DNA of 46,116 bases from Verrucomicrobiota bacterium. GTDB taxonomy: Bacteria; Verrucomicrobiota; Verrucomicrobiia; Verrucomicrobiales; DEV007. The DNA is taken from positions 1-46,116 of the forward strand of contig JASFYY010000116.1 of the NCBI GenBank assembly GCA_045046875.1, given 5' to 3'. The position numbers were made by a program, and so were the translations under genes. Position 1 is the first letter of the stretch. Every line of letters begins with the position of its first letter. The notes below the pieces were generated by a model, which worked only from the letters and a program-made list of their open reading frames with translations, was not told where the DNA came from and ran no database searches. Of the stretch, positions 3,335-37,100 are shown in pieces.

Positions 3335-5236
3335 CTATTTCTCTGGGACAAAAATATCCAATTGCTTCAGCCTATGTTCAAGATATCTAAGATCATCAAT
3401 GGGAATAGGTTGATCTCTTACTATATTTTCCACCTGTTCAGTGTCTTTACGTTGGTTCCAGAGCCAGACCAGATACACCAACGTGTTCCGACGTAAATCA
3501 TCGTTCCCTAAAGCCATAACCCATTCGAGAGTGTCATCTGGATTGGCAAACCAATTCTTCCCAACCAATAATCCTAGTATTGCGAATGATTGTAATTTCT
3601 TATCTTTGATATCTTCCGCGTAGGTGACTGCGGCGCCTTCATCAATGGTGACCCAAACCGATAAGACCCCTTGAATTGCTCCGTTATATGCAATAGGCCG
3701 CTCCAGTCGCTTCGCAAAGGCTAGCCCCGCATCAACCGTGTCACGCTTGACCAACAATTCCGCCAACCGCTGCGACATATTTTCCAATTGCATTCGCTCC
3801 GGAGTAAATTTCACGTAACTTTTTATCGCTCTATCCAGATCGTAATCCGCCATCTTGAGAGTTGCATCTCGAACGCTGATCCATTGATCCGGCCACCATT
3901 GACCTGCCTCCAGCGCATCGAGAATCCGTCCTGGATCCTCGTTGGCCAAATACTTTCCCGCTGCTCGAAAAAAGGTCACCCTCGTCTTTCTGTCTTTCAG
4001 GTTTTCACCAAATTCCCAAGCCGCCTCGGTGTCGGATTCAATCCATCGCCTGACTAGCCCACTCAGTGCTAGCAGCTTCAAATCGCCGTCAGGCATAGCG
4101 AGGATTTCTTTGGCTAACTCTCCTTCTTTTCCCTTGGTGTGATACGCCGTCCAGTCTTTTTTCTTGGGCGCTTCTTCCTTTGCCTTTTGTTCTGTGGTTA
4201 GTTTTTCCGCATCTTTCTGTGCTAGTAATGTGCCTGAAAATAAAGCAACCGTTATGACCAAAGCGATAAAAATACCAAGCGATGAGGGTAAAGCTTTGCG
4301 GCTATTCGATGTTTTCAAGATTCTCTCAATCCGGCAAAGAAGGTCATCATTGTTCGCTGCCTGAGCCAGTTGTGAAACCTCTTCTAGACGACTACTCTCC
4401 AGACTTGTCAATGCCTTGGCGTAATCAAACCGACTCTCACTTCTTTTCAACACCATGTCATCACATGCAAATTCCCTTTCACGTCGCAGACGTCGCGACA
4501 CCCACCAGACTGCCGGATGAAAGAAGAGAACCGTTTCTGCTATTGTTTGCATAAGATTGATCAAATAATCCTGCCTTCTGATATGAGCTAACTCGTGAGC
4601 CAGTATCAATTCGATCTGCTGGTGTGACAATCCGGCCAATGCGGAGACCGGAAGAAGAATCACCGGCTTCAACCATCCAAATGTTATGGGTGATATAACA
4701 CGGGAGTGTTTTAAAAGAATAACCTTTCTACGAATCCCAATGCGCCCAATCACGTTATCAAATGCCGCGAGAATATTGCCTTCTTCCACGGGAATACTCC
4801 GCTTACGAAGATAGTGGAGATTGAACCACGCGCCGGTGAGTCGTAATGCGAATAAAGCGGCGCCCATGAACCACCCGATTCCTATCCAAATTCGCCATGT
4901 CGACACATTCTTCACTGATACCGAGATGAAAGAATCATCCACGAAAAATCCTTTCTCTAGCAAAGTGTGATTGGGTACACTTCCGCTTGGTGCTGAAATA
5001 GAATGTAACCTCGCAAGGGATGATTGATCTGATCCCTGGCGCATCACTGTTACAACTGGCAATGCGATCATTAGCGCCAACGCAACTGCAGCGGCAGCAG
5101 AGCGAACACGAGGACAAACAAAGGTGTATTGAATCGCTGCATACCCCGCAGCTATCACGACTCCCTGCCAGAGAAAGTGCAGCAATGCGAACCCGGCTCG
5201 GTCAAATAATTCGAGATGTAGAGTTGTGAAATTCAT
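3335..5236 (-). CDS. blaR1: BlaR1/MecR1-family M56 metallopeptidase signal transducer with an alpha-helical C-terminal extracellular domain
   Basis: LLHFLWQG, SPITFGWLKPVILLP, HELAHIRRQD zinc motif, FFHPAVWW and EREFACDD; ATGA overlap with blaI. Symbol is family-level only. Confidence 0.92.
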   Translation of the reverse strand: MNFTTLHLELFDRAGFALLHFLWQGVVIAAGYAAIQYTFVCPRVRSAAAAVALALMIALPVVTVMRQGSDQSSLARLHSISAPSGSVPNHTLLEKGFFVDDSFISVSVKNVSTWRIWIGIGWFMGAALFALRLTGAWFNLHYLRKRSIPVEEGNILAAFDNVIGRIGIRRKVILLKHSRVISPITFGWLKPVILLPVSALAGLSHQQIELILAHELAHIRRQDYLINLMQTIAETVLFFHPAVWWVSRRLRREREFACDDMVLKRSESRFDYAKALTSLESSRLEEVSQLAQAANNDDLLCRIERILKTSNSRKALPSSLGIFIALVITVALFSGTLLAQKDAEKLTTEQKAKEEAPKKKDWTAYHTKGKEGELAKEILAMPDGDLKLLALSGLVRRWIESDTEAAWEFGENLKDRKTRVTFFRAAGKYLANEDPGRILDALEAGQWWPDQWISVRDATLKMADYDLDRAIKSYVKFTPERMQLENMSQRLAELLVKRDTVDAGLAFAKRLERPIAYNGAIQGVLSVWVTIDEGAAVTYAEDIKDKKLQSFAILGLLVGKNWFANPDDTLEWVMALGNDDLRRNTLVYLVWLWNQRKDTEQVENIVRDQPIPIDDLRYLEHRLKQLDIFVPEK

Positions 5237-5619
5237 TTTTTCTTCCCTGTATTTTCCAATTTATCGATAAGTTTCCGGATTTCGCACAGTTCTTCCGGTG
5301 ACGTCGGATTCTCCGACAGTGCCGAAAGAACAAGCTTCGAGGTGGATCCCCCAAACACTTTGTCCTGTAATTCCCCAAGCAATTGACGAGCAGTTTGTTT
5401 TTGATTGTGGTCAGCAGAATAAATATGACTGCGTGCGGATTCATCTCTATTCACAAGTCCCTTTTCATGCATGATTTGCATTAATTTCAGGATTCCGGTG
5501 TATCCCGTTTTTTGTCCCTGTTCCTCCCATACCTGCTTTACCGTTCTTGGCCCTTGCGTCCAAAGGACGTGTAAAATTTCCAGCTGAGCTTCTGTGGGCT
5601 TCTGTTTTTTGCAGTTCAT
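5233..5619 (-). CDS. blaI: BlaI/MecI/CopY-family transcriptional repressor
   Basis: PTEAQLEILHVLW, GYTGILKLMQIMHEKGLVNRD and VFGGSTSKLV; directly upstream of the M56 gene. Symbol is family-level only. Confidence 0.93.
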   Translation of the reverse strand: MNCKKQKPTEAQLEILHVLWTQGPRTVKQVWEEQGQKTGYTGILKLMQIMHEKGLVNRDESARSHIYSADHNQKQTARQLLGELQDKVFGGSTSKLVLSALSENPTSPEELCEIRKLIDKLENTGKKK

Positions 5620-5974: not shown

Positions 5975-7828
5975 TCATGTCGAGAGCATCGCCTGAGCCC
6001 GCTGAAGCTCATCGGCGAAATCTGGTGACTTGTAGCGCTCGGGTACCAGCGCGGGGTAGCTGCTGGTGGAGGCGGCGATCAGGGATTGTGCGGTACGTTT
6101 CGCCACGATGCCCTTTGAAGCCGACCAGGTTTCAAGCACACGGGTCACCGTCATTTCCGCAACATCCCGGCGAGCGCTCTTCACTTCACGGATAAGAAAA
6201 TCCAGGTCGCGATTCGAGTACCAGTCGGTGGCTGCCACCACCTGATCCAGCTCCTCACTTTCCAGCACGATTCCCTTTAGGGCGAACATGGCCTTGAAGA
6301 AGTCTTTACGCTCATCGCCCTCCAGATCGAAAATCGGGATTTGTTTCGGTGCGCGGCTGAGCACGTCGGGATCGAGTAGATCGGGCCGGGTAGTCATCAG
6401 GCACCAGACGACTTTTGAGAGCAGTCCCTTGTCGGACATCATCTTGATGATGTTTGCCATCAGGCGCTTCTCAGTAGCGTGGGTTCCACCGGAATGGATG
6501 CTGCCGAAGGCGGCGTGCGCTTCATCGACGAGGATGGCGACCTTGCCGTAAATCTCCACGTAGCGTCGGACCATCTCGAAGAGCCGGTCGGTGCCGCCGA
6601 AATCTGACGAGCGGATCTGCGAAAGCTCGATGACGATGCGTCCGGAGTCCGCGGCGTGGGCCTCGACATTGAAGGTCTTACCGACGCCGTTTGGCCCGGA
6701 AACGACGAAGGCGGAGATGGCGGTGTCCGGGTCCTCGCAGTCGCGGAAGACACGCTTGATGGCATCACGCGGGCCTTGATAGCCGCGCAGATCCTCATCG
6801 CCATGCTGAGGGCGCTTGATGGTCACCACGCCGTCGAGTTGCGCCATCAGGATGTCATTGAGCAGGGCGTTCACCGCCTCGCGAGTGACCGGTTTTTCCG
6901 AGCGGGCAGATTCTTCCAAGAGTGAGGAAATGGCATTCAGCCCGAGTCCGGCGGATTCCTCGGTGAAGTCCCAGGCACTGTCTCCGAAGGCCGGCGTGGC
7001 GGATTCCGGATCCTTTCGGAACTCTTCGATCTTGTGCTCCACAAAATGGCGACGCGTCGCTTCGTCAGGAAAACCGACCTCGATGATCTGACTGGAGGGC
7101 AGAGAATAGATTCGTGAATTCAGCTCGGCGCGGTTGTCGGACACCAAGATGGTGATGTGTCCGCCAGCGTGGTAGCCGGGATCACTCAGCCAGCTGAGCA
7201 AAGTGGCCAGACGGCTGCGGTCGAGCTCGGAGAGCTTGCCGAAATCCCCCGGTGGAAAGAAAGCTCCGGCCAGGCGGACGATGGTGCAGATGGGTTTGAC
7301 CCGGTTGCCGCTCTCGGTCGCTTCGCGCGCCATCTCGGTGAGTTCACGCAGCAGAACGAGCGCCGCGCCAGGGCGTTGTTTGGTGCGTTCGAGCAATTGC
7401 TCCGGCGTGGGGCTGGCCGGCCTATTAGACTTCTTCTTGCCATGGGAACGAGCACGCAGGTGGCGATTGACGATCTCCGATCCGAAGTCGATCAGCCCAC
7501 CAAGTGAATCCACATCCTCCCCGGATGTGCCCGGCAGATTGTTCCTGTTCCAACCAATGGCATCGAAGAGCGACCGGCGCTGGTCGCTATCGTAGAAACC
7601 GACGCCAAGCGATAGATCGAGCCGGATCATGGTGAAGTGTCCGTCGAAGGACTGGCAAAGACGCTCCTCCAGAGGCGCGTAGCCAGGACCGTCACGATCC
7701 GGAAAGATGCCCATGACATCGCCCGTCAGGACGAAAACTCGCTTGCCACGATGTTTCACGCCATCGACCAGCGACTTCATGAAAGGCGGCGTGGGTCCGG
7801 GAGTGAGGGTGGTTGCTGCCGTGCTCAT
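5975..7828 (-). CDS. Classical-clade AAA+ ATPase with a degenerate N-terminal AAA-like domain
   Basis: Walker A GPNGVGKT, Walker B ILVDEAH and SRH-like TTRPDLLDPDVLSR in the C-terminal half. The N-terminal half lacks Walker A but has IEVGFPDEATRRHFV, typical of the end of an AAA module. Confidence 0.85.
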   Translation of the reverse strand: MSTAATTLTPGPTPPFMKSLVDGVKHRGKRVFVLTGDVMGIFPDRDGPGYAPLEERLCQSFDGHFTMIRLDLSLGVGFYDSDQRRSLFDAIGWNRNNLPGTSGEDVDSLGGLIDFGSEIVNRHLRARSHGKKKSNRPASPTPEQLLERTKQRPGAALVLLRELTEMAREATESGNRVKPICTIVRLAGAFFPPGDFGKLSELDRSRLATLLSWLSDPGYHAGGHITILVSDNRAELNSRIYSLPSSQIIEVGFPDEATRRHFVEHKIEEFRKDPESATPAFGDSAWDFTEESAGLGLNAISSLLEESARSEKPVTREAVNALLNDILMAQLDGVVTIKRPQHGDEDLRGYQGPRDAIKRVFRDCEDPDTAISAFVVSGPNGVGKTFNVEAHAADSGRIVIELSQIRSSDFGGTDRLFEMVRRYVEIYGKVAILVDEAHAAFGSIHSGGTHATEKRLMANIIKMMSDKGLLSKVVWCLMTTRPDLLDPDVLSRAPKQIPIFDLEGDERKDFFKAMFALKGIVLESEELDQVVAATDWYSNRDLDFLIREVKSARRDVAEMTVTRVLETWSASKGIVAKRTAQSLIAASTSSYPALVPERYKSPDFADELQRAQAMLST

Positions 7829-8790
7829 GAGGTTCTGTTGCTGTCCGCGTGATCGTGGTCGAAGTTCGCGATATGCTGGCGGTGCTCGGGGTCGAGCACG
7901 TCCTCATGAACCTTACGCCGTAGTTGGCGGAACTCCGGAAAATCAATGACCGAGGTCGGGTGTGGGTAGTTGCCACCGAGGGCAGCGGTCACGTCGCGGT
8001 CAGTGACGATGCGTGCGCCAATCTGTTCGTCTGCGTTATCCGCCGTCCAGTATTGGGAAAGTCCGATAACCCGGCTGCCGAGGAAAAGCGCCTCGTCCAA
8101 ATCGTGTGTTACGAAGACCACCGTGAGCTGGTGCCGCTCGGCCTGCTCCAGGATAAAGAGCTGCATGTCCTCCCGTGTGCTGTGGTCGAGCGCGCCGAAG
8201 GGCTCATCCATCAGCAGCACCTTGGGTTTCATGATGGTGGCTTGCGCGATGGCTACACGCTGCTGCATGCCGCCGGAAAGCTCGTGCGGGAACTTGTTGC
8301 CATCGTCCTCGGTCAGCCCCACGCTTTCGAGCAAGCTGAAGGCTTCCGCCCGCGCCTCACGAAAGACCCGCCGGTAGCGTGGCCCAATGCTGCGAATCAG
8401 CGATTCAAACGGACCGGTCTGCTGAAGAAGCGGGCCAAGCGCGATGTTATTGGCGACGGTGAGGTGGGCGAAAAGCGAGTAGCGCTGATAGACGATGCCG
8501 GTCTTCGGGCTGACGTGCCTCACCGGCTCACTGTCCACCATGACCTCGCCCGCAGTGGGAAACTGTGAACCCAGAATGAGCCGGAAGAGCGTAGATTTTC
8601 CACACCCGCTCGGGCCAACGATGGTGGTAAACTCTCCCTGACGGATGGTCAAATTCAGCCCTTTGAACACGGTGACCGAGTCACGCTGGAGCTGGAAGCC
8701 CTTGTCGAACTTCAGCTTTGGCTTTGATTCATAGGTCACCTCCGTATTCCGGAGTTCGACGACCGCTTTTCTCTCTTCGTTCATGCTCAT
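7825..8790 (-). CDS. ABC transporter ATP-binding protein (NitT/TauT type)
   Basis: GPSGCGKST, LSGGMQQR, LLMDEPFGALD, FVTHD. Confidence 0.95.
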   Translation of the reverse strand: MSMNEERKAVVELRNTEVTYESKPKLKFDKGFQLQRDSVTVFKGLNLTIRQGEFTTIVGPSGCGKSTLFRLILGSQFPTAGEVMVDSEPVRHVSPKTGIVYQRYSLFAHLTVANNIALGPLLQQTGPFESLIRSIGPRYRRVFREARAEAFSLLESVGLTEDDGNKFPHELSGGMQQRVAIAQATIMKPKVLLMDEPFGALDHSTREDMQLFILEQAERHQLTVVFVTHDLDEALFLGSRVIGLSQYWTADNADEQIGARIVTDRDVTAALGGNYPHPTSVIDFPEFRQLRRKVHEDVLDPEHRQHIANFDHDHADSNRTS

Positions 8791-8803
8791 GTCGGTTGTT
8801 AGG

Positions 8804-9652
8804 TCAGCGGCCAGCGAGCCATCTGTAGCGGTACTTGATCCACAGACTGATTGCCAGATCCAGCAGAAACATCAGCAGAGTTAACCAGATTACGTAGACG
8901 ATGGTCGAGTCCATTGCCGTCGTGCGGTAGAATTTAATGAAGATGCGATAACCAATGCCTGCCTCTGCAGAAATGGATTCGCCGGCAATCATCAGCACGG
9001 CCATCACCCCGAGGTTCAGACGAATCGTATTGAGCACGTCTGGCCAGATTTGTGGAAAAACCACGCGCCATGGCAGCTCCAGTTCGCAAGAGCCTAGGCT
9101 CTGCGCCTTGTAGAACTGCTGTCGCGGTAGCGCCTTCGCACGCAGGTAGGTGTCCAGGCAGACCATTGGAAAGACGGCGAGCACAATCAGTCCGACCTTG
9201 GCCACCTCACCGGTGCCGAGGGTCAGGAAAAGAATGGATAACAGGGCCAATGCGGGAACCATGCTCAGGATGACCATGATGGTCTTTCCCAAGGATTCGG
9301 CCCACGGGTAGCTGCCCATCATCACGCCAATAGGCACGGCGAGCAGGATCACTGCCATCGCCCAGCCCATGCGCTTGAAGCTGGCGACAGTGTCCTTGTA
9401 GAGCATGAACTGGCGTTCAAGCCGCAGTTCCTTGCGGCGTGTGCTCTCACTCTCTGCCTCGGGAATCGGCAGAGCTACTTTTTTCGCCGCAGTGACCAGC
9501 TTCCCAGCTGTCGGCATCAGTTTAGCGCGATCAGTATCTGCGAGGTCCGAAGACTTCTTCACATACATAAAGCAGAGGAAGATCACCGGCAGCAGCTTCA
9601 GGACAAGCCTGCCGAGCCAAGGGATCCGTGCATCTGTGCGCAGGTATTTCAC
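8804..9652 (-). CDS. ABC transporter permease (NitT/TauT type)
   Basis: Multiple TM segments; EAA-like loop KAQSLG...RVVFPQIWP; GIGYRI motif. Confidence 0.92.
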   Translation of the reverse strand: MKYLRTDARIPWLGRLVLKLLPVIFLCFMYVKKSSDLADTDRAKLMPTAGKLVTAAKKVALPIPEAESESTRRKELRLERQFMLYKDTVASFKRMGWAMAVILLAVPIGVMMGSYPWAESLGKTIMVILSMVPALALLSILFLTLGTGEVAKVGLIVLAVFPMVCLDTYLRAKALPRQQFYKAQSLGSCELELPWRVVFPQIWPDVLNTIRLNLGVMAVLMIAGESISAEAGIGYRIFIKFYRTTAMDSTIVYVIWLTLLMFLLDLAISLWIKYRYRWLAGR

Positions 9653-9684
9653 TGATTTCGATAAGGTTAATGCTCTCAGGATGC

Positions 9685-10728
9685 TTACTTCGAAGCGCTG
9701 AAATTGAAACGCAGCTTCACGTTGTCCTTTTTGCCAAGGACCTCGCCGTCGGCAAATTGAATGCCGATGTAACCAGCGTCATCCGCGTCTTCACCCAGCA
9801 GTGCCTGATCGAAACAGAAATCACGCACCATCGTGGTCGCCTTCTTGTGAGCCTTGGACTTGAGGGCGTCGCCCATGGTGTCCGGCGTGTAGTAGAAGAA
9901 AGTGGTCTTCAGCTGGGCCTTGGCTTCCGCCGCGGTGACGTTGGCTGCCTGTGCGATGGTCGCGATCAGATCCTCGGCCTCCTTACCTCCGCTACTGAGG
10001 GTGTTCATGGCTTCGAACCATGCTCCGGAGATGGCTTTGGCAAGACGCGGATCTTCCTTCAGCAGGTCGCTGCGCATTACAAAACCGTCCAGGATCTCAC
10101 CGGGGATTTTCGAAGAGTCAAAGACATTGGCCACTCCGGGCTGTTGCATCAGGCCAAGAGCGTGCGGGTTCCACGTGACTGTGGATTTTACCTTTGCGTC
10201 ATCACTGGTGAAACCACTGACGATACCCTTCTCAGCACGGTGGGCGAACTTGAAGTCCGACTCCTTCATGCCGCCAAGGACGATACCTCGATAGGTCAGG
10301 TAGTGGCTCACGGTGAACTCCTCGCCATACACAGTTGTGCCCTTGAGACCGGAGATGGATTTCGTTCCGGTGGCGAGCCACATGTCATTGCCATTCGAAT
10401 AATCTCCGACAACGAAAAACGTACAATCGATCCCCGCCTGACTGATCAGGGTGAGGGCATCCATGGTGGTCACGGGGACCACGTCGATGTTCTTCGCCTT
10501 GAAGGCGTCGATGGAGGCCACGTAGCCGAACTCCTTCACGGAGATCTTGATGCCATTGGCCTTGGCGTGTTTGTCGAGCAGTCCGGTATCAGCGAGGTAT
10601 TTCACTGGGCACCAGCCGATATAGTTACTCCAGCCGAAGGTATAGTCACCATCGGCCTGGGCGTTGGCCGTCATGGAAGCGGCTGCGGTTATGGCCACCA
10701 TCAGGGCGGCAATTGCTATTTTTTTCAT
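9685..10728 (-). CDS. ABC substrate-binding protein, urea-carboxylase-region (guanidine-type, TIGR03427-like) family
   Basis: Signal peptide. WSNYIGW, TMDALT, GDYSNGND, VSHYL, VTWNP, FDSSKIPGEI, GAWFE and GKKDNVKLRF match the family pattern as recalled. Confidence 0.85.
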   Translation of the reverse strand: MKKIAIAALMVAITAAASMTANAQADGDYTFGWSNYIGWCPVKYLADTGLLDKHAKANGIKISVKEFGYVASIDAFKAKNIDVVPVTTMDALTLISQAGIDCTFFVVGDYSNGNDMWLATGTKSISGLKGTTVYGEEFTVSHYLTYRGIVLGGMKESDFKFAHRAEKGIVSGFTSDDAKVKSTVTWNPHALGLMQQPGVANVFDSSKIPGEILDGFVMRSDLLKEDPRLAKAISGAWFEAMNTLSSGGKEAEDLIATIAQAANVTAAEAKAQLKTTFFYYTPDTMGDALKSKAHKKATTMVRDFCFDQALLGEDADDAGYIGIQFADGEVLGKKDNVKLRFNFSASK

Positions 10729-10757
10729 AGTATTGTTCGTTGTTGTTGAGTGGATAC

Positions 10758-11579
10758 TCAGGCCTTGAGTTCGCCTTCGTCATCCGTATTTGTTGATTCG
10801 GTGGTCCCTTCCGGGGTGTCTGCTGCGAGCATCTCGTCAAGCAGGTCGAGCCCGTCCTGCTCGACCATGGTGGCCGCCAGCTCGGTCTCAATTGAGTCAG
10901 CGGATGCGCCTTCCAGATCGGACTTGATCTTCGCCTGCTGCTTCATTGCGGAAATGCGGTTGGTGACCGTGCTCAGGGTCGAGCGGTCGGAGGACTGCTC
11001 AAGTCCGCTGAGGCGGTCCATGAGGGCGGAAGTGGTCTTCGCGTCCACGTAGTCAGCGATGGCCTGGGCCTTCTGATCGTCGAGCGCCTTGATTTCGCGC
11101 TGACGCTTGGCCAGTTGCGTCTTGAGATGGTCGAGGCGGCCTTGACGGTCCTCTAGCTCCGGTTGCACCCGGGCCTGCAGCGTGTCTTCGGTCTGCACCT
11201 TGCCCTGATAATCGATGAAGGCACGTTGCCATTTCATCACATCGGGATCACTCTGTGCGGTCTCACGGGTCAGGCCCTTCTCCTTGAGGACCTTGGCGAG
11301 CCGGAGTTTCGCTGTATCGCGCAGCTTGATGAACTTTTCCTCGCGCTCGAGGCTCTCCTCAAGACGATCCTTGCTGGACTCGACACTGGCGGCAAGCTGC
11401 GAGACGGCGTTGATGAACTCGGCGTGGTCCTTGATCTCCTTGTCCTTCTGGATGTCGAAGGCCATGCCGACCCCCTCGGCGGAGGATGTGAAGGTCTCTT
11501 CGGCGGCTTTATTGACTTTTCCGCCAGCCCACAGCCACTTGAAGGTGAGGAACCGGCCAATTGCTTTAAATAATCCCAT
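10758..11579 (-). CDS. PspA/IM30 (bacterial ESCRT-III-like) coiled-coil protein
   Basis: Likely start ATG 11579 (273 aa). Amphipathic N-terminus MGLFKAIGRFL, long coiled-coil hairpin, then short helices and an acidic tail, as in PspA/Vipp1. Divergent. Confidence 0.7.
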   Translation of the reverse strand: MGLFKAIGRFLTFKWLWAGGKVNKAAEETFTSSAEGVGMAFDIQKDKEIKDHAEFINAVSQLAASVESSKDRLEESLEREEKFIKLRDTAKLRLAKVLKEKGLTRETAQSDPDVMKWQRAFIDYQGKVQTEDTLQARVQPELEDRQGRLDHLKTQLAKRQREIKALDDQKAQAIADYVDAKTTSALMDRLSGLEQSSDRSTLSTVTNRISAMKQQAKIKSDLEGASADSIETELAATMVEQDGLDLLDEMLAADTPEGTTESTNTDDEGELKA

Positions 11580-11598
11580 AGTCGTTTTTGATGTGTGT

Positions 11599-12492
11599 TT
11601 ACAGTATTGTGGATGTCTCATTTCGGACATTCCGGAGGAATTCCTTCATGTCCGTTTCCGCCGCCTCGGCGGCGGCGACCACACTAGACAAGCGTGTGGC
11701 GAGGTTGTCGCTGCTTTCATCCAGAGCGAGATCGGAACGACCTGCGTCTGACATGTAAGCACTTTTCAAGGCTGCTTCCAGCTCATTCGAACGGGCGATG
11801 AGTTCATCGCGTTTCGCCGTGAGCTGTTCGTAGCGGTTGATCTGTTGGGTGTGGGCGCTGATTTTGCTATCCAGCACCGTGTGGTTGGTGTCCGCCTTGA
11901 GCCGCTCGTCGGTCCACCCGGCGAGCTCATGGCGCAGCATCGTGATGTTGATACCCGTGAGCGCCGAGTGGATCTCGGCGGCTTGTCGCAGGTGTTCCAC
12001 CCCGGCCTTGCGGGCAGATTCTGCCAGGCCAAGCCGCTGTCCCACGGCGTTACCGAGCTTCGCTCCGGCCCGTGTTTCCAAAAATTCGGTGTATTGGGAA
12101 TAGGCGTCTGACAGCTCGACGGCTTCCTTGGCCGCCTCCGTGAAGCCAAGTTCGCGACACATCTCGGCGACCTCAGCCAGAGCCGTGCGCCGGTCCTGCT
12201 TGAGTTCCTCCATCATCCAGCGGATGTGGCGTTTGGTCAGGGTCTCACCGCGAATCCACATATTGTAAACGAAGGCTGCGGCTCCCACCACCCCCAGCAC
12301 GACCGCAGCGAAGACCCCGAAGAAACCCCAGCTGAATGCTCCGGTGAGCAGCAGGATTCCTCCGGCCAGAGCCAGCGGTATGATCGTGAATGGTGATTGG
12401 ATGCACTTGTTTCGGACGGCTTTAAAGATGGCTTCCTCATCGGTCAGGCTCTCGAGACTGATTTTCTGACGATTTTCATCCTTATCTGTCAT
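11599..12492 (-). CDS. Hypothetical membrane protein (2 N-terminal TM helices plus long helical/coiled-coil domain)
   Basis: Hydrophobic segments FTIIPLALAGGILLLTGAF and FFGVFAAVVLGVVGAAAFVY followed by heptad-like helices; 18-19 bp from both neighbours. Confidence 0.8.
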   Translation of the reverse strand: MTDKDENRQKISLESLTDEEAIFKAVRNKCIQSPFTIIPLALAGGILLLTGAFSWGFFGVFAAVVLGVVGAAAFVYNMWIRGETLTKRHIRWMMEELKQDRRTALAEVAEMCRELGFTEAAKEAVELSDAYSQYTEFLETRAGAKLGNAVGQRLGLAESARKAGVEHLRQAAEIHSALTGINITMLRHELAGWTDERLKADTNHTVLDSKISAHTQQINRYEQLTAKRDELIARSNELEAALKSAYMSDAGRSDLALDESSDNLATRLSSVVAAAEAAETDMKEFLRNVRNETSTIL

Positions 12493-12510
12493 TTGATGTT
12501 CTATAAAAAT

Positions 12511-14121
12511 TTAGAGTCCTCCGCGTTCGACGAGGATGGCTTCGACGCGCGGGACACGGCCTCGATAGGCTCGTGACCTCGGATTCTCACCTGGTCGGAC
12601 CTCCGGCGGTTGTGAGGAGCCCACGCCCTGGACGAAGAGGCGGTCCTCGTCGAAGCCGTGGATCAGTATCAGCCGCTTCTTCACCACTTCGGCGCGCAGG
12701 CTGGAGAGTTCGCGGTTCTCCTCGCTGTCCTGCCCGCCAGTGTGGCCGCGGATGATCACCCGATAGTTCGGATAGTTGATAGCGAGGAGCTTGGCGATCT
12801 TGTCGGCCTCCTCGGCGGCGCCGACTTCAAATTGCGTCTTGTTACGAAAACGGATGAGGCGGACCTGGAGCTTGGCGACTTCATTGAGCTTGATCCACGC
12901 GTCGGCCTTGAGCGGTTCGAAATCGTAGGCTCCGTCATCGCCCTGTCCGAGCGAACGTGGCGCGGCGTTCTTGAGGGCTTCGAGAACACGGGAGTTCACC
13001 AGACGATAGGGGTCGTTGATTTCCGAAGCACCGATGCGACCAGCGTCCACCAGCACATCGATGCAGGATAAAATGGTATCGATCACTCCTTCCTGTGGAG
13101 CGATGTTCGAACCGTTCATGGCGATTCCAAACTGCTGCTGGCAGTTGTCATGAAGGTCCAGCCAGTCGATCTTGTGTTCGTTCACGATAGCCTCCACGGC
13201 GGAACGATCAATATCCGCCCAGTGGGCCATGTCCGTGGTCAGCTCCTCGGAGTTGCGGCGGTAGTGGTCAAGTGCTCGGAAGTAAGCCTTGAAGTATTTC
13301 AGCACATCACCCTCGCGTTTCGCCAGCGTCTGCTTGTTGACCACGAAGTAGTCGACGATGTAGCCCGCGAATTTGTCCGAGCCCCAGATATAGGTGAGAT
13401 TCGGGTTTTTTTTCAGCGCCCGGGAAATATCAGGTTCCCACATTACGAAGACATCGCCCTGACCGTTCATCGCACGGGTGTAGACCTCCGCGGAGGAACC
13501 CACCGGCTTGCGCCAGTCCCCGCGCTGTGATCCGCCCTGCTCATCGGCGGCGCGGAGGTTGAAAAAATCCAGGTCCTTGACGGTGATGTCCACCAGGAAC
13601 TCGCTCGGGCTCTCGCCGGTATAGACCCACTTCAGCGCGTCATCATTGAGGTTCGCCACATCATTATTGGGCAGCTTGTCCTTGAGCACGACGATGCCGT
13701 CACCGCCATTGGACCGGGCGATGCCCACAACCATTACCCCAGGAAATCCCTTTGCTCTCCCGTGAATCAAATACTCGGCAGCAGGGATGGCGATGATGTC
13801 ATACTCCCCGGTCGCAAGCTTGGAGACCCGCTCGGCGATCACCGCACCGTCATCGACCCATTGAATACCCAGCCCTTGGCGCGCGGCTTCCTTCTTCGTC
13901 TGCTTGGACGAGGCAAAGAAGTATCCGAGGTAGCCATCGCCCGCGATCTTGAGTGTGGAGTTCACCTTGGCGTCCGAGATGTCGCGCTCAAATTGCTCGG
14001 CCTTCTCCTGTTCTGCCTGTTCCTGCTGTTTCCTGAAGAAGGGCTTGATGGCGAACCATGCCCCGGCCACCAGGGCGCAGACAACAAAGAGCAGCACGGC
14101 GATCTTTGATGTGGAATTCAT
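12511..14121 (-). CDS. TM-anchored substrate-binding (NMT1/SsuA-like) domain fused to a C-terminal OmpA-like domain
   Basis: N-terminal TM; RSNGGDGIVV, MWEPDIS and IVDYFVV; C-terminal IIRGHTG...NRELSSLRAEVV...RLFVQGVGSSQP...RVE. Confidence 0.85.
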   Translation of the reverse strand: MNSTSKIAVLLFVVCALVAGAWFAIKPFFRKQQEQAEQEKAEQFERDISDAKVNSTLKIAGDGYLGYFFASSKQTKKEAARQGLGIQWVDDGAVIAERVSKLATGEYDIIAIPAAEYLIHGRAKGFPGVMVVGIARSNGGDGIVVLKDKLPNNDVANLNDDALKWVYTGESPSEFLVDITVKDLDFFNLRAADEQGGSQRGDWRKPVGSSAEVYTRAMNGQGDVFVMWEPDISRALKKNPNLTYIWGSDKFAGYIVDYFVVNKQTLAKREGDVLKYFKAYFRALDHYRRNSEELTTDMAHWADIDRSAVEAIVNEHKIDWLDLHDNCQQQFGIAMNGSNIAPQEGVIDTILSCIDVLVDAGRIGASEINDPYRLVNSRVLEALKNAAPRSLGQGDDGAYDFEPLKADAWIKLNEVAKLQVRLIRFRNKTQFEVGAAEEADKIAKLLAINYPNYRVIIRGHTGGQDSEENRELSSLRAEVVKKRLILIHGFDEDRLFVQGVGSSQPPEVRPGENPRSRAYRGRVPRVEAILVERGGL

Positions 14122-14205
14122 TCGTTGGGGTGGATCTTCGGGATGAGTATCGGTTCGTCTTCGAACACTAATAGGTTGGCGTGGGAGCTTCCACAGGTCA
14201 AGGTC

Positions 14206-14967
14206 TTACAGGTCGCCCGCCGCACTATCGTCGAGTTCGGCGAGGGTCTCCTTCATCGCGCCAAGCAATTCCTGCTCGTCGTTGGCGCTGAAGTAAGCCT
14301 CCGAATATTGGCGTAGCGGGTGGGCGCTCTTGATGTGGAATCCGATCGTGTAGATTGGCACATGGTAGTCGCGTGCGAAGGTGATGCTCTTGTTGAACAT
14401 CCCCTGGTCGCTGGCCCGGCCATCCGTCACAACCACCAAGCGGACATCTCCGTAGCGCAGTTGCTTCTGGAACTGGGCGATCAGTGCCTTTGTTCCGGTT
14501 TGGATTGCCGCGCCAAGAGGGGTGCCGCCGCCGGCATTGATTTGACTGATTTCGGTTGCGAGCTGTTTGCGCTGTGTATCGCCGCGCCCGAGTGCCACCA
14601 CTTCCCGTCCGTCACTGCTGTTTGCATCGAATACGAAGAGCCCGATGTTCAAATTGTCGGGTGCTCCGGCGATGAAGGCGGCGACCGCGCTCTTGGCTTC
14701 CTCTATCGACTGGCCGGTCATACTGCCACTGCCGTCGAAGACGATGTAAACGTTAGAGCTGGGGTCCATTTTCGAACCCGGAGGCGTCGTATTGGCAATC
14801 GGTTCCTGGTCGAACGACCTCTTGCTGGCTTTGGCCGTGACCATCGGGCTTTCGAAAGCTTGTTGGCGTTCCGACGTGGTGAGGGAGCCACTACTTGATT
14901 TTTCACAACCCGTCGCCAGCAGCGCCGCCAGGGCGATGAGCCCCATAGGATAAAGCTTATTCTTCAT
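14206..14967 (-). CDS. vWA-domain lipoprotein
   Basis: Lipobox LATGC; complete MIDAS DGSGS...GGTPL...VVTDG; IPIYTIGF-like end (VPIYTIGF). Confidence 0.92.
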   Translation of the reverse strand: MKNKLYPMGLIALAALLATGCEKSSSGSLTTSERQQAFESPMVTAKASKRSFDQEPIANTTPPGSKMDPSSNVYIVFDGSGSMTGQSIEEAKSAVAAFIAGAPDNLNIGLFVFDANSSDGREVVALGRGDTQRKQLATEISQINAGGGTPLGAAIQTGTKALIAQFQKQLRYGDVRLVVVTDGRASDQGMFNKSITFARDYHVPIYTIGFHIKSAHPLRQYSEAYFSANDEQELLGAMKETLAELDDSAAGDL

Positions 14968-14986
14968 TTTTGTTCGGGGCTAATGA

Positions 14987-16741
14987 TTAAAAATCAATTT
15001 TCACGTCGTCGCCGACCTCGAGCACCTCAAGGCGCTCCAGAATAATCACGCCGCGGCGGTTTTCCGCACGTTTCTTCGGAGTGTCAGCGTTCTCATAAAC
15101 CGGAACGACTGCACCGCGACCAATGGCGACGATGCGGTTCTCGTCCAAGACCAGCCCTTCCGATTTACAATAACTCACAAAAGCATCACGCAGCGCTTCG
15201 GCGCGCTGGGCGGACTTCGTTTTGAGCGAACGCTCCAACAGCGTAGCGGTCTGCTGGGTAGGAGATGAGGACATCTTCAAAACCTTTTGGATCTTGCCGA
15301 GCAGAACATTGTCGTTCCTCTCCAGTGCCTGGAGCAGACGCATCAGCAGATAGCCGTCCGCATGTGCTTCGATAATCATCGTGGTGCCCGCATAGGTGTC
15401 GACCATGCTCATCGCCTGCTTGAAGTAATTCTTCAAATTGGCGTCTTTGGCATCGAAGGAATTCTGGTTCGCTGCGAAGGGAACAGTGAAGTCGAAGAGC
15501 GCAGTATCGCGTTCACTCAGTTCTGGATTTTCCATCAAGAACTGCTCGATCTTCTGCTGTGCTTGCTCGGGGCTTTTGAAGACCGACTTGGCAACCTTTA
15601 CCTCACCGGCGTATTTCAGTCCGGCACCCAGCGCGGCCCAATCCCATCCGGCGACGGGCATATCAAAACGACCGATACCGCGTCCGGCCCTCTCAAAAGC
15701 CACCTGAATCTCCTCGGTCAGCGTTTCCATGCTGCGTGTGGTTCCTTGACCGGTGAAAAAAGCCACGTTGCCGGAATGGCCGACAAGTTCCGCCTCTGAA
15801 AGCATTGCCTCAGTATCGCCTACAAGTCCGGCATCACCCAGCAGCAGTTTGGCAGAAGCGGCCATCACCTTGCGGTGCTCGGCGCTGCGTTTGGCCTTGC
15901 CATCCACCAGATCGCGCAGCGACTCCTGCGCCTTGAGCAAGCTCTTGACGAAACCCTCGACCGTCTTGCGATTGGCGTCGAAGTAATCCTTACGCACGGC
16001 ATAGACGTCGGGAATGATGCGGCTCGCCTGCTTTGAGGTGAAAAAGATCTTTGCTCCCTTCACCGCGTAGTCGCCCTCGGTCAGCGCAGCGGCGTCCGGC
16101 GAGATCACCCACACCGCGTCGATGTCATCACGCACCTCGAACAAGCCGGGAGGCGAGGATATCTTGTCACCCCCGCCGTCGAGCGGAGCGGCAAGTTCGG
16201 GCAGGTAGACAAACTTCACCTTGGAAGGGTCCGCGCCAGCATCCTGCAGGACCTTGATGGCAGGGTGTTCGTGCGGCCCGTAAAGCTGTACGGCCACCGT
16301 CTTGATGTCCTTGAGGGACTTCACCCGATCGCGCACGACCAAGCAGTCGCCACCATTGCTCCACGAGAGTTGATAGATCACCACGAGGTCCGTGCCTGCG
16401 TTTTGGAAGGCCTTCCGGGCCTGCAGAATCATCGGCAGTGTGCCTCGCAAATAGGGAGAGCTGCCGTTCAGGCAGTTGTCCACCTGGGCGGGGAAATTAT
16501 CTTCCCGGTAGAGTTTGGAATCTGGCAGGATTCCGTCCATCACGGCTAACTGGGTAGCGACATCCGCCCCCCAGGCAATCACCGGGATCTTCTTGTCATT
16601 ACTCACCGGTTTAAGTTGGGATTTGGTGATCGTCTCGAGTGGCTTATAGGGCAGAATATCAGCTTTTTGCGCAAAGCTGATTGCGGGCGTGAGGCAGAGC
16701 AGCATGGCAGCGGCTTGTGCTGTAAGTGCGGAAGTCTTCAT
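14987..16741 (-). CDS. Exported substrate-binding (NMT1/SsuA-like) protein with a C-terminal OmpA-like domain
   Basis: Signal peptide; WSNGGDCLVV and IIPDVYAVRKDYF; C-terminal IIEAHAD...SAQRAEAL...RIVAIGRG...ENRR. Confidence 0.85.
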   Translation of the reverse strand: MKTSALTAQAAAMLLCLTPAISFAQKADILPYKPLETITKSQLKPVSNDKKIPVIAWGADVATQLAVMDGILPDSKLYREDNFPAQVDNCLNGSSPYLRGTLPMILQARKAFQNAGTDLVVIYQLSWSNGGDCLVVRDRVKSLKDIKTVAVQLYGPHEHPAIKVLQDAGADPSKVKFVYLPELAAPLDGGGDKISSPPGLFEVRDDIDAVWVISPDAAALTEGDYAVKGAKIFFTSKQASRIIPDVYAVRKDYFDANRKTVEGFVKSLLKAQESLRDLVDGKAKRSAEHRKVMAASAKLLLGDAGLVGDTEAMLSEAELVGHSGNVAFFTGQGTTRSMETLTEEIQVAFERAGRGIGRFDMPVAGWDWAALGAGLKYAGEVKVAKSVFKSPEQAQQKIEQFLMENPELSERDTALFDFTVPFAANQNSFDAKDANLKNYFKQAMSMVDTYAGTTMIIEAHADGYLLMRLLQALERNDNVLLGKIQKVLKMSSSPTQQTATLLERSLKTKSAQRAEALRDAFVSYCKSEGLVLDENRIVAIGRGAVVPVYENADTPKKRAENRRGVIILERLEVLEVGDDVKIDF

Positions 16742-16927: not shown

Positions 16928-16964
16928 ATTGTAAGGGCAGCGCTACAATTGACAAGGGTCAATT
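16928..16964 (-). promoter_or_regulatory. Putative sigma70 promoter of the nine-gene operon, overlapped by palindromes
   Basis: Minus-strand TTGTCA-N16-TACAAT (16955-16928). Overlapping dyads AATTGAC-N4-GTCAATT (16947-16964) and ATTGTA-N10-TACAAT (16928-16949). Confidence 0.5.
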
Positions 16965-34180: not shown

Positions 34181-37100
34181 TCAGAACCGCCACTCTAGTC
34201 CGGTCGATACGCTGTGGCTGAGGTAGTCCTGGCGAGCGAAGTTAGTATTATAGTAAAGGTAGGCACTCCAGTCTCGACTGAATCTGGCGCTGACTCCTGC
34301 GCCGGCCTGAATGCCGTCTTGACCGAGGGCCTCAGTTTCGTAATCGAAGGACGATCCCTTGCCACCATCTAGGGTGGTTCCGATCTCGCGGGAGTCCTGC
34401 AAAAATTCATGTTGCCAGAAAACTCGAAGTTCAGGAATGACAACCAAGTTAGGTCCGAGATCCCAGGCGTAGGCGATGCGCCCCCCTATGTTCGTGCGGA
34501 TACTGTTGACTTCCTGACGGTCGAGCCGCAAGTCGAGGCTCTCGGCTCCGTTCTCGGAGAAAGACGAAATGCCTGCGTAGGTGTACTGTGAGCCGGCTAG
34601 GACACCAATGGTGAAGCCGCCTGCTCTCCAGTCGTAACCAAGATCCTGATAGGCGTTGAACTGTCCGCCGTCGGGAGAGCTGCGAGCGGTTCGATCCACG
34701 GTCGAGAAGGCGATTGAGCGACGCATCCGGTAGTCGTTGTGGCCACCACCAAGGATGGTTTCGGCATAAAAACCGCCGTTTTCGTAGATTGCGTAGGCGC
34801 CAAAGAGAGCACTAGAGATCCTGCTGTTGCTGTCGCCGGCATTGTCGATCCATGTGTAGTCGTAGCCGATATAAGCACCCACGGTCAGCTTCTGATCCTG
34901 GGCTCCGGAACCTGCATCAACGGATTCACCAAAGGTGTGGTCGGCACCGATCAGAACCCCGCCGGTCTGAAAATTGAGGCTCGGCATTTGGCTGGTATTG
35001 GAGAGCTTGGCGAAGATGCCGCTGGCTTGCACCCACGTCGACCATCTAGGAGCATGGGCTGCGGAAATGGGGCCGGATTCTTTGCCGCCCATTACATCTT
35101 TACCGCTTCTGTCGTAGCGCAATGGGCTCGCCTCGATGCCAATGGCACTAAATCCGCGGGATCCGAGACGGATGGCGCTCATTCTCTGGACCAGCATTTG
35201 GTTATGAGCCACTGCCTGCTCAACGATGATGTCGGTCAGATTCTCGTAGAAAGCCGGGGTGATCGCATCAAAGGCCGCCGCATATTGCCCTTCGCTTTGG
35301 ATGTCGAGGGCGATGCTGACCGTTTCGCGGTCATTGCCGCGTTCGGAAATGTAGCTGTCCAGAGCTCTCGCCACGCTGCGTTGATTCGCTGTTTCTGCCA
35401 CCAGTGTGTAGCTCGTTGGGGCGACGAGGAGGGTGCCGGTGCCACCTTCGGCGAGGAATCGACCTCGAAATCGATCAGGATCCGGCATGAGAATGCGGTC
35501 GAAGTCACCGCTGATACTGCCAGCTTGAAGGAAATCAAGTTGCTGTCCGTAATCCAATTGATTGCCTGCGAAGTTGATCGCTTGAAGGGTCCCCGCGAGG
35601 GCTGCGTTGTCTCTGACGACAAGGCGATCGAATACCGATGGGCTGGCGACTTCGATTTGGAGAGTGCCACTGGAACTCTGGGTGAAGTTGCCATTGATAG
35701 TCAGGGTGCCCGGGCTGTTGCCGGGGTTGACGGTGCCGTTGTTGACCACGTTGCCATTGATGATTCCGCTGCCGCCAAGGAGAGCGTTTTGAAAGACGGT
35801 CAATCCACCACCGGTGGTGAAGGTGCCATTGACGTAAAGCGATCCGGCTTTGACCCTGGCGGCACCTGCCACGCTGACGGTATCGTTGAGAATGAGCTTG
35901 CCCGCTCCGTCTTTGTTGAAGTCGCCGGGAACAACAACTCTACCTCCGCTGATCGTTCCGGTTCCGGCATTGACCGTGAAGCGGCCGCTGGTCACGGTCA
36001 GGGTGTTGAAAACCCGCAGCGAGCTGGACGGATTGAAAATCAAACCATTGATGATATTGTTTTCCGTTGGGGTACCCGTAGTGACCGCACCATTTACGAT
36101 GAAGTCGGAAAAAGTCGGGATACCAACTGGCGCGCTGTTTTGCAAAATGGCACCGGCAAAGAATGGCGTGCCAAGAAAATTAACAAAAAGGTCGTTTCCC
36201 GTAATGGAGAAGATGGGATCCAATCCTAAAAGAGCATTACCAAAGAAGTCCGCTGCCGGATCAAAAACCCCCAGGTTGTCGGCATTGAAAATTTTGTAAA
36301 AGGTATTGTTGCTAAATCCAGCCACCTTCGTGAAATCAAACTCACCCGGTGCACCGAGGCTCAGCGAGCCTGTGGCATCGATGAAATCCGTTGTCGTGCC
36401 GATATCAGTTGCGATCGTTCCACCGTTCCAAGTAAAGGCACCGGTGTTGAGCGTGCCGACGGGGTCGAGGGTGCCTGCATTATGGACAACAGATCCGTTA
36501 CCCAAAGCGGTCAGACTGGTTGTGCGCAACGTGCCCGAGTTAATGGTCGTGCCTCCTGAGTAGGCATTGTTAGCGCTGAGGATAAGTGTGCTAGCGCCGG
36601 TCTTGGTGAGGCTACCCACACCGCCAATCACTCCACTGTGAATGAGGTTCGCTCCGGACTGAAAGATACCGCCTGCGGCGTTGAGGGTTGTGGCGCGCGC
36701 GGTGGAAAAAGCCGCGGTGTTTTGCAGTGTGCCGCCGCCGAAGGTCAAAGCACCGGACAAGTCGCCGAGGCTGTTGTCCGCGCTCACGCTCAGAATACCT
36801 CCATTGAGCCGGGTGCCGCCAAGGTAGGTCTTGCTGCCGCTTAGAATGAGAGTGCTAGCGCCGGTCTTGGTGAGGCTGCCCGCACCGCTAATAATACCAC
36901 TGTACGTGAGGACCGCTCCGGTCTGGAATGTGCCGCCTGCGGCGTTGAGAGTCGTGGCGCGCGCGGTGGAAAAAACCGCGGTGTTTTGCAGTGTGCCGCC
37001 GCCGAAGATCAGGCTGCCGGACGAGTCACCGAGGTTGTTGTCTGCGCTCACACTCAAGATACCGCCGTTGAGTTGGGTGCCGCCAAGGTAGCTGTTGCTG

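What the first reader, a model, noticed from the sequence alone, without database searches (positions are those of the whole stretch)
5975..16741. Nine-gene operon joining OmpA-fused binding proteins, vWA, an ABC importer, a PspA/ESCRT-III-like protein and an AAA+ ATPase
Seen: nine co-directional genes with gaps of 19, 84, 18, 19, 29, 32, 13 and -4 bp. They look GC-richer than the flanks and include no catabolic enzyme or regulator. Established: PspA/Vipp1 are ESCRT-III homologues that remodel membranes; OmpA-like domains bind peptidoglycan; vWA MIDAS domains mediate metal-dependent protein binding. Inference: this is not a simple nutrient-uptake operon but a trans-envelope machine. Wall-anchored binding proteins would sense a ligand or damage, the ABC unit would transport or transduce it, and a PspA polymer plus AAA+ ATPase would act on the inner membrane, for stress, toxin or phage resistance. 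SBP/OmpA/vWA sets recall Ter/TelA-type stress neighbourhoods from comparative genomics, but I know of no experimental characterisation of this combination.
Basis: partly seen in the sequence, partly recalled or inferred. Interest (0 to 1): 0.88.

Follow-up and report, generated by a model that had tools for sequence, protein, structure and literature searches.

The report
Membrane-repair operon shared with giant phages
These nine genes form a real, widely conserved but untested bacterial cell-envelope unit that couples wall-anchored small-molecule binders and an importer to a membrane-repair protein and its likely recycling motor, and giant bacterial viruses have captured it too.

Summary
All nine genes and all eight gaps are confirmed. 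G5 is a divergent PspA/Vipp1 (ESCRT-III) protein. G9 is a tandem AAA+ ATPase whose first domain is degenerate. The same order recurs in Haloferula, distant Verrucomicrobiota and 14 of 29 metagenome contigs with enough upstream DNA.

The operon class is not new. Ravi et al. 2024 (PMC11237479) noted PspA + TM protein + double AAA + ABC + PBPB-OmpA operons computationally; I found no experimental study.

Added here:
(1) The ABC trio is optional: two lineages lack it cleanly.
(2) G6 is related to urea-carboxylase-linked binding proteins and has a guanidinium-type pocket.
(3) Vibrio plasmids carry seven orthologues, with non-homologous TelA in the PspA slot.
(4) Jumbo phages carry it: three IMG/VR contigs hold all nine genes, and a 595-kb T4-like phage holds G1-G8, apparently from two captures.

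This scan already noted the TelA version, and a phage copy of it, on other DNA.

Best model: a wall-tethered envelope-maintenance complex in which the 2-TM protein G4 positions PspA and the AAA+ recycles it. Binding and function are untested. Verdict: new variant of a known, uncharacterised kind.

The parts
14987..16741 (-). G1, 584 aa: exported SsuA/NMT1-like (class II) binding-protein fold fused to a divergent C-terminal OmpA-like domain
   Evidence: NMT1 E 7e-4; SsuA E 1.5e-6 and weak OmpA-type hits at 510-568; Atlas look-alikes NMT1 and NMT1+OmpA; signal peptide judged by eye
14206..14967 (-). G2, 253 aa: vWA protein with MIDAS motif (DxSxS, T, D); predicted lipoprotein (Cys21)
   Evidence: PF00092 E 1.5e-16; lipobox-type N-terminus also in L005 and Vibrio but not in main-clade examples; lipobox judged by eye
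12511..14121 (-). G3, 536 aa: N-terminal membrane anchor (7-25), binding-protein domain, OmpA-like peptidoglycan-binding domain
   Evidence: PF00691 E 6.4e-12; TIGR03427 E 7.5e-7; hydropathy
11599..12492 (-). G4, 297 aa: two-TM hairpin (35-53, 57-75) with a long helical domain; no family; homologue of the gene preceding telA on Vibrio plasmids (XpaC/PspM-like position)
   Evidence: No Pfam or NCBIfam hit; AF2 all-helical, pLDDT 75; no PDB fold match at E<=1e-3; hhalign to the Vibrio gene prob 94%, E 1e-7; Atlas nearest named family Rv2743c, score 0.90, on 40% of members
10758..11579 (-). G5, 273 aa: divergent PspA/Vipp1 (ESCRT-III) protein with amphipathic helix 0; true start 11579
   Evidence: Profile vs Vipp1 6zvr E 6.9e-10; 29 of 140 family members hit PF04012; AF2 helices and top Foldseek hits Vipp1, E 2e-3; highest hydrophobic moment at the N-terminus
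9685..10728 (-). G6, 347 aa: free ABC substrate-binding protein of the urea-carboxylase-linked (TIGR03427) type; pocket Y36, W39, D109, D115, W186, D214
   Evidence: 321.4 bits vs cut-off 333.9; 40% identity to the uca-linked protein of Asticcacaulis; same six residues in the Vibrio and uca proteins
8804..9652 (-). G7, 282 aa: ABC importer permease (TauC/SsuC-like)
   Evidence: PF00528 E 1.2e-13; TauC E 4.7e-20
7825..8790 (-). G8, 321 aa: ABC ATP-binding subunit (NrtCD/TauB-like)
   Evidence: PF00005 E 1.5e-32
5975..7828 (-). G9, 617 aa: tandem AAA+ ATPase; N-terminal AAA degenerate, C-terminal AAA with intact Walker A and B and an arginine in the SRH
   Evidence: PF00004 at 375-498; best NCBIfam hits CdvC and CDC48 far below cut-off; alignment; N-half vs C-half hhalign E 1.5e-4, prob 52%
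16928..16955 (-). Possible sigma-70-type promoter about 190 bp upstream of G1 (consensus match only)
   Evidence: 10 of 12 matches; 10 sites found vs 4.6+/-2.2 in shuffles; not evidence of function

Best explanation
This is a modular inner-membrane maintenance system built on a wall-tethered chassis. G1, G2 and G3 form a periplasmic complex held between peptidoglycan (OmpA-like domains) and membrane (G3 anchor, G2 lipid), where two binding-protein domains hold small ligands. G4 is the membrane adaptor that positions the cytoplasmic effector at these sites. G5 (PspA) polymerises on and patches or reshapes the inner membrane through its amphipathic helix 0. G9 uses ATP to disassemble or recycle the polymer, as Vps4 does for ESCRT-III. 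G6-G7-G8 is an optional importer for a small organic cation, probably guanidinium-like in this lineage. TelA can occupy the effector slot instead of PspA. Shown: gene identities, order, co-occurrence, modular losses, the TelA substitution and phage carriage. Inferred: every physical interaction, the ligands, the stress role and the action of G9 on G5.
For: G1 and G5 occur in the same 8 of 401 phylum genomes. In two of these the operon is split over two loci yet all nine genes are kept. All nine genes are in 14 of 29 metagenome loci with at least 9.5 kb upstream of G9. G5-G9 pairs without the rest occur in 4 of those 29. G6-G8 are cleanly absent in L005 and L022, where only unrelated stand-alone binding proteins were found elsewhere. 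They are also absent in 3 of 5 loci of a sister subtype. Seven orthologues flank TelA on two Vibrio plasmids; TelA and G5 are not detectably homologous (prob 1.9%). An E. faecium conference abstract ties xpaC/telA to membrane phospholipid organisation (PMC6811118). PF04012 finds no canonical PspA in this 94.7% complete genome.
Against: No interaction was modelled or measured. G9 has no MIT domain hit. The 595-kb phage keeps G5 but G9 was not found in it, and 3 of 29 loci have G9 alone, so G5 and G9 are not obligately paired. An unverified scan note (e1-4607124) says TelA-type clusters also carry an AAA ATPase, which would make G9 not PspA-specific. The window lineage has Asp where other members have the pore-loop Trp. 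It also lacks the C-terminal LP/IP motif found in 67 of 140 G5 homologues. No expression data exist.
Confidence: 0.55

Rival explanations
1. The operon is a high-affinity scavenging system for a nitrogenous solute (guanidine-like). Wall-anchored binding proteins concentrate the ligand for G6-G8, and PspA/AAA merely protect the membrane or assemble the complex. Phages carry it as an auxiliary nutrient-uptake module.
For: G6 groups with a urea-carboxylase-linked binding protein (support 0.989). Its pocket spacing matches the residues docked for the guanidine binder GimA (W59, W62, D135, F205, D233; PMC12704784). G7's best plasmid hits come from the same genera as G6's. All three binding domains are SsuA/NMT1-like.
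Against: The importer is dispensable while the anchored binding proteins persist. There is no catabolic gene in the operon and no Rfam riboswitch at threshold in 7 of 7 loci or at E<=1 in the window region. G1 and G3 pockets differ from G6. G6 was not aligned to GimA itself.
Confidence: 0.22
2. The operon is an anti-phage or superinfection-exclusion system: periplasmic sensors trigger PspA-mediated membrane sealing or depolarisation, and jumbo phages use it against competitors.
For: Patchy distribution (2 of 61 relatives), high GC, flanking genes not shared with relatives, and presence on plasmids and jumbo phages.
Against: No specific PADLOC model matches. No defence-system family appears among the 22 other window proteins scanned against Pfam. 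Several marine contigs have it beside a ribosomal protein cluster, a housekeeping context.
Confidence: 0.12
3. The operon is a vesiculation or periplasm-shaping machine, suited to PVC bacteria with enlarged periplasm: PspA plus AAA+ bud or tubulate the inner membrane at wall-anchored sites to take up or release cargo.
For: The ESCRT-III plus AAA+ pairing. Named carriers are mostly Verrucomicrobiota and Planctomycetota.
Against: G9 relatives also occur in Acidobacteriota, Cyanobacteria and Parcubacteria, and TelA can replace PspA.
Confidence: 0.08

Closest known systems
PspA / TM-anchored 'Snf7' / inactive+active classical AAA+ / ABC ATPase + permease / PBPB+OmpA operons (Ravi et al. 2024 mSystems, PMC11237479; example OGG56892.1)
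   Same: PspA, tandem AAA+ with dead first domain, ABC ATPase, permease, binding protein fused to OmpA and a 2-TM helical protein, with the same proposed link of membrane remodelling and transport (passages and supplement rows).
   Different: The window has three binding-protein domains and a vWA protein; vWA has 0 occurrences in that paper's text and its one held supplement. The order differs; the paper's layout matches a sister subtype found here (L204, L209). G4 shows no detectable Snf7/PspA homology (prob 1%). The passages read mention neither TelA nor phage carriage.
xpaC-telA loci (Enterococcus faecium, PMC6811118) and the TelA-type version of this operon on Vibrio plasmids pSEA2 and pIFO15642
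   Same: A 2-TM helical gene directly precedes the effector. The Vibrio loci share G1-G4 and G6-G8.
   Different: The effector is TelA (PF05816 E 4e-50), not PspA, and no G9 was found on these plasmids. G4 has no XpaC Pfam hit; only a truncated UniRef name for one homologue points to XpaC.
ESCRT-III / Vps4 (CdvB/CdvC) systems
   Same: An ESCRT-III-fold protein encoded beside a classical AAA+ ATPase.
   Different: G9 is a tandem AAA without a MIT hit and scores 31 bits against a CdvC cut-off of 650. A 2025 review states a Vps4-like ATPase appears absent in bacteria (PMC7619361 passages).
Guanidine importer GimABC and urea-carboxylase-linked ABC transporters (TIGR03427)
   Same: G6-G7-G8 are homologous to the uca-linked importer (40%, 31%, 42% identity), with a conserved aromatic/aspartate pocket.
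   Different: There is no carboxylase, hydrolase or riboswitch at the locus, and G6 is just below the equivalog cut-off.
Huge-phage pspA loci (bioRxiv 10.64898/2026.10.24.761521)
   Same: It reports complete ABC transporters beside 15 of 189 phage pspA genes (section 9 read).
   Different: Its main text has 0 occurrences of 'AAA' and does not describe the G1-G9 operon. Its supplements could not be seen and may list these phages.

Membership tests
PspA/Vipp1 (ESCRT-III) for G5 | Sequence homology to PspA/Vipp1 | tested here: met
   Family profile vs 6zvr E 6.9e-10; 29 of 140 members hit PF04012 at E<=0.01, though the window protein itself does not
PspA/Vipp1 (ESCRT-III) for G5 | Helix 0, long helical hairpin, further short helices | tested here: met
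   AF2 pLDDT 78.8, helices 2-31, 34-101, 112-194, 203-222, 242-253; top Foldseek rows Vipp1 at E 2e-3, none at <=1e-3; amphipathic, +4 N-terminus
PspA/Vipp1 (ESCRT-III) for G5 | Polymerises on and remodels membranes | not testable with these tools
   Needs cryo-EM or liposome assays
Ravi-type PspA-AAA-ABC-PBPB/OmpA operon | Tandem AAA+ with inactive N-terminal copy next to PspA | tested here: met
   Degenerate N-terminal motifs; halves align at E 1.5e-4, prob 52%
Ravi-type PspA-AAA-ABC-PBPB/OmpA operon | ABC ATPase, permease and PBPB+OmpA protein | tested here: met
Ravi-type PspA-AAA-ABC-PBPB/OmpA operon | TM-anchored divergent Snf7 protein | tested here: inconclusive
   G4 is a 2-TM helical protein in that role, but hhalign to the G5 family gives 1%, to the sister-subtype 2-TM protein 14%, and Foldseek finds no ESCRT-III match; the wide fold search did not finish
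Vps4/CdvC for G9 | N-terminal MIT domain plus single AAA domain | tested here: not met
   No MIT hit; tandem AAA; CdvC 31 bits vs cut-off 650
Vps4/CdvC for G9 | ATP-driven disassembly of ESCRT-III polymer | not testable with these tools
   Biochemistry needed
TIGR03427 / GimA-type binding protein for G6 | Score above the equivalog cut-off | tested here: not met
   321.4 vs 333.9 bits; relatives 324-331; main-clade G6 122-167
TIGR03427 / GimA-type binding protein for G6 | Aromatic cage plus aspartates of the guanidinium pocket | tested here: inconclusive
   Residues identical to the uca-linked protein and spacing matches GimA, but no direct GimA alignment or binding test was made
TIGR03427 / GimA-type binding protein for G6 | Linked guanidine riboswitch or catabolic enzyme | tested here: not met
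XpaC for G4 | XpaC Pfam match | tested here: not met
   No Pfam hit for G4, its Vibrio homologue or main-clade examples
Known anti-phage systems (PADLOC 2.0) | System-specific HMM matches | tested here: not met
   Only generic ATPase hits for G8 and G9; none for the other 7 of 9

The most novel reading that the evidence does not exclude
G9 is a dedicated bacterial ATPase that disassembles PspA polymers, filling the role of Vps4 that bacteria are said to lack. G1-G4 is a ligand-sensing, wall-tethered recruitment platform, a bacterial counterpart of the early ESCRT adaptors, that accepts either PspA or TelA as effector. T4-like jumbo phages captured the whole machine at least twice to control the inner membrane of the cells they infect.
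Probability: 0.3. Interest if true: 0.87.

Novelty: new variant of a known kind. Interest (0 to 1): 0.62.

Why it matters
How bacterial ESCRT-III (PspA) polymers are placed and taken apart is an open question; a 2025 review says a Vps4-like ATPase appears absent in bacteria. This operon supplies a candidate adaptor (G4) and a candidate disassembly ATPase (G9), and it is present in cultured Haloferula species, so the question is directly testable. The TelA-for-PspA exchange on one chassis offers a handle on TelA, whose mechanism is unknown to me (recalled). Retention by jumbo phages suggests the machine helps manage the infected cell's envelope.

Tried and rejected
- Wide fold search of G4: did not finish. 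Foldseek on G4 gave only generic helical bundles.
- G4 as a Snf7/PspA homologue: not detected.
- TelA as a PspA homologue: not detected, but the TelA profile had only 2 sequences.
- Riboswitch: none at threshold. A twister-sister hit inside G4 (28.3 bits vs 34) was treated as chance.
- No RNA holder was listed.
- Window G9 had no match in plasmids (E 1e-15) or GenBank phages (E 1e-8). The phage copies are about 30% identical and were found with other queries.
- (no G9 in two plasmids, the 595-kb phage and two IMG/VR fragments) had no positive control.
- Terminase PF03237 was found in 0 of 5 IMG/VR fragments and Gp23 in 0 of 2. Their viral identity rests on IMG/VR's call, replication genes, one head-closure hit and an N-terminal motif.
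- G243's weak G5 hit (E 3e-9) was dropped: no operon genes lie near it.
- Whether the G9 sister clade (Acidobacteriota, Cyanobacteria, Parcubacteria) sits with PspA or TelA could not be seen: no viral loci and no way to fetch those genomes.
- TelA PF05816 was over cut-off in 0 of 5 operon-bearing genomes.
- Literature: searches found no experimental study of this operon, but subscription journals are not covered. The 2012 Ter-system paper that I recall was not held and may describe the TelA version. Supplements of the huge-phage preprint were closed.
Full report
Observation. The nine ORFs lie on the minus strand and read G1 (16741-14987) to G9 (7828-5975). The block is 57.8% GC against 51.0% for the genome, with GC3 of 0.69-0.76 against 0.40-0.65 for six neighbours. 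Four flanking genes had no tblastn hit in the related loci L002-L008, so the block sits in a different context in each relative. Homologue names place the host among Verrucomicrobiales near Haloferula.

Gene identities. G1 and G3 are SsuA/NMT1-like binding proteins fused to OmpA-like domains. The OmpA domain is clear in G3 (E 6e-12) and weak in G1. G2 is a vWA protein with a lipoprotein-type N-terminus. G4 has two TM helices and a helical domain with no family or fold match. G5 has no Pfam hit, but belongs to a family of 502 representatives at E<=0.001. Its profile hits Vipp1 structures at E 7e-10, 29 of 140 aligned members hit PF04012, and the model has the PspA helix pattern with Vipp1 as top, sub-threshold fold hit. 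No canonical PspA was found in the genome. G6-G8 form a type I ABC importer. G9 has an intact C-terminal AAA domain and a degenerate N-terminal one.

Conservation. Of 6 close genome loci, 4 hold all nine genes in order, 1 is cut by the contig end inside G4, and 1 (L005) lacks exactly G6-G8. Among 401 phylum genomes, G5 and G1 were found in the same 8, the window's genome included, after dropping one weak G5 hit. The distant copies are 21-44% identical, with conserved order; L022 again lacks G6-G8. Two genomes split the operon over two loci but keep all nine genes. From the best 80 of 235 metagenome hits for G9, 29 had at least 9.5 kb upstream. Of these, 14 hold all nine (11 in order, 1 with G9 in two pieces, 2 with G9 moved to the front), 4 hold only G5-G9 as a pair, 3 hold G9 alone and 8 hold other subsets. 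These loci were chosen by G9 and some are near duplicates. A class-level search found 9 further G9 relatives in 350 genomes. Two show all nine genes and a third shows eight in my listing. Five form a sister subtype (PspA, one anchored binding protein-OmpA fusion, a 2-TM protein and the AAA; vWA listed in 3 of 5), and 3 of these 5 lack the ABC genes. One has no partner gene. The system is patchy: 2 of 61 close relatives with the single-protein query. Named G9 homologues come from Acidobacteriota, Cyanobacteria, Parcubacteria, Planctomycetota and Hydrogenedentes; their neighbourhoods were not seen.

TelA version. A G3 query hit 6 Vibrio plasmids. The two that I opened encode ABC ATPase, G1, G2, G3, a 2-TM protein, TelA, G6 and permease. 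The 2-TM gene is a G4 homologue (HMM E 5e-9, hhalign 94%). TelA sits in G5's slot and is not detectably related to it. G9 was not found on these plasmids (the second search lacked a positive control). In a G1-G4 tree the window lineage, the Vibrio lineage and the main PspA clade are three deep branches. The G6 tree groups the window with Vibrio and a urea-carboxylase-linked protein (0.989). The direction of the exchange is therefore not established. I found this before consulting the scan's notes, which record the TelA version on other DNA; one unverified note reports an AAA ATPase in such clusters.

Phages. IMG/VR contigs G455 (with an identical second record), G456 and G457 hold all nine genes, with extra small genes inserted. 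G454 holds G4, G5, a degenerate G6 and G9. G458 and G459 hold G1-G3 and G1-G4 up to their contig ends, and G453 holds G9 only. The contigs scanned share phage-type recombinase, helicase and polymerase genes, with phage SSB in three of them. G454 has an 11-tRNA cluster and G459 a head-closure gene. An N-terminal motif that I recall as the T4 capsid-targeting signal occurs 25 times in 375 kb against 2 in 1.14 Mb of host DNA. No terminase or capsid gene was found in these fragments, which are 9-67% complete. GenBank record LR756511.1 (595 kb) has a T4-type major capsid gene (E 5e-87) and G1-G8 contiguous, without a detected G9. The IMG/VR copies form one clade (G9 support 0.998; G1-G4 support 0.993). 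The 595-kb phage groups instead with two bacterial contigs (0.996), one of which has a G5 clustering with Planctomycetaceae proteins. This suggests two captures from planctomycete-like hosts (inference; FastTree, midpoint root).

Ligand. G6 scores 321 bits against TIGR03427 (cut-off 334) and is 40% identical to the binding protein beside urea carboxylase in Asticcacaulis. Y36, W39, D109, D115, W186 and D214 are identical in the two, and their spacing matches the guanidinium site docked for GimA (PMC12704784, passages). A guanidinium-like cation is the best guess for this lineage. Main-clade G6 has Ser at 109 and an added Glu. G1 and G3 have different pockets. No riboswitch was found.

Mechanism (inferred). 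The loss pattern gives three modules: a wall-anchored chassis with its adaptor (G1-G4), an effector (PspA with AAA+, or TelA) and an optional importer. Since anchored binding proteins persist without the importer, they are more likely sensors or scaffolds than cargo donors. G4 precedes either effector, as XpaC precedes TelA and PspM accompanies mycobacterial PspA (gene roles recalled; the Atlas lead to Rv2743c is weak). I therefore read the operon as a localised inner-membrane repair or remodelling device recycled by G9 (confidence 0.55). Against this: no interaction was tested, and G5 and G9 each sometimes occur without the other.

Comparison with what is known. Ravi et al. 2024 already describe PspA with a tandem AAA+, a TM-anchored protein, ABC ATPase, permease and a PBPB-OmpA protein, and propose a link between membrane remodelling and transport (passages and supplement rows). 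The window is an expanded variant with vWA and three binding domains, and their Snf7 label could not be confirmed for G4. A 2026 preprint reports ABC transporters beside 15 of 189 huge-phage pspA genes but not this operon (abstract, passages and section 9); its supplements were not visible. I also saw passages of PMC11188069 and PMC7619361 and the whole abstract PMC6811118. Searches found no experimental characterisation.

Verdict. The feature is real, conserved and uncharacterised: a new variant of a computationally known kind. Interest 0.62. The boldest reading, a bacterial Vps4 counterpart with an interchangeable-effector platform captured by jumbo phages, has probability about 0.3 and would merit about 0.87.

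Noticed in passing
L005:4173-4814 (-); also L003, L008, L047, L048, L054: A 213-aa gene with no Pfam hit lies divergently upstream of G1 in three Haloferula-type loci and downstream of G9 in three metagenome loci. It was not found in the window's genome and may be a tenth partner.
   Followed up: partly
L109, L110, L112, L113 between G6/G8 and G9: In the phage copies a polynucleotide-kinase-like ATPase, usually preceded by a gene that looks CinA-like by eye, is inserted just before G9. An ADP-ribosylglycohydrolase lies downstream in two of them.
   Followed up: partly
L123:224-5259, L146:7164-12541, L150:2840-9742: The same phage clade carries a three-gene block (phrog_22605, 19072, 35217) that I recall as PrkA/YeaH/SpoVR-like, plus a heptose kinase/adenylyltransferase gene.
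   Followed up: no
L080:4763-11740: A variant in which G4, PspA and the AAA flank binding proteins of a different class (SBP_bac_11), one fused to vWA, without OmpA domains.
   Followed up: partly
L196:11869-14911 (Vibrio plasmid p380): A lone G1-like plus vWA gene pair beside an integrase, without the other genes.
   Followed up: partly
window 3335-5619: A BlaI/BlaR1-type repressor and M56 peptidase pair directly downstream of the operon, with low GC; not found beside the operon in relatives.
   Followed up: partly
window 34181-40027: A 1948-aa autotransporter with passenger-associated repeats.
   Followed up: no
L089, L090, L096, L097, L099, L106: In marine contigs, one with G5 named from Limisphaerales, the operon abuts a ribosomal protein cluster, and that G5 cluster has 621 members.
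   Followed up: no
L108, L094, L095, L103: A separate clade of G9 without partner genes; L108 is an IMG/VR contig and L095 has similar small-ORF surroundings.
   Followed up: no
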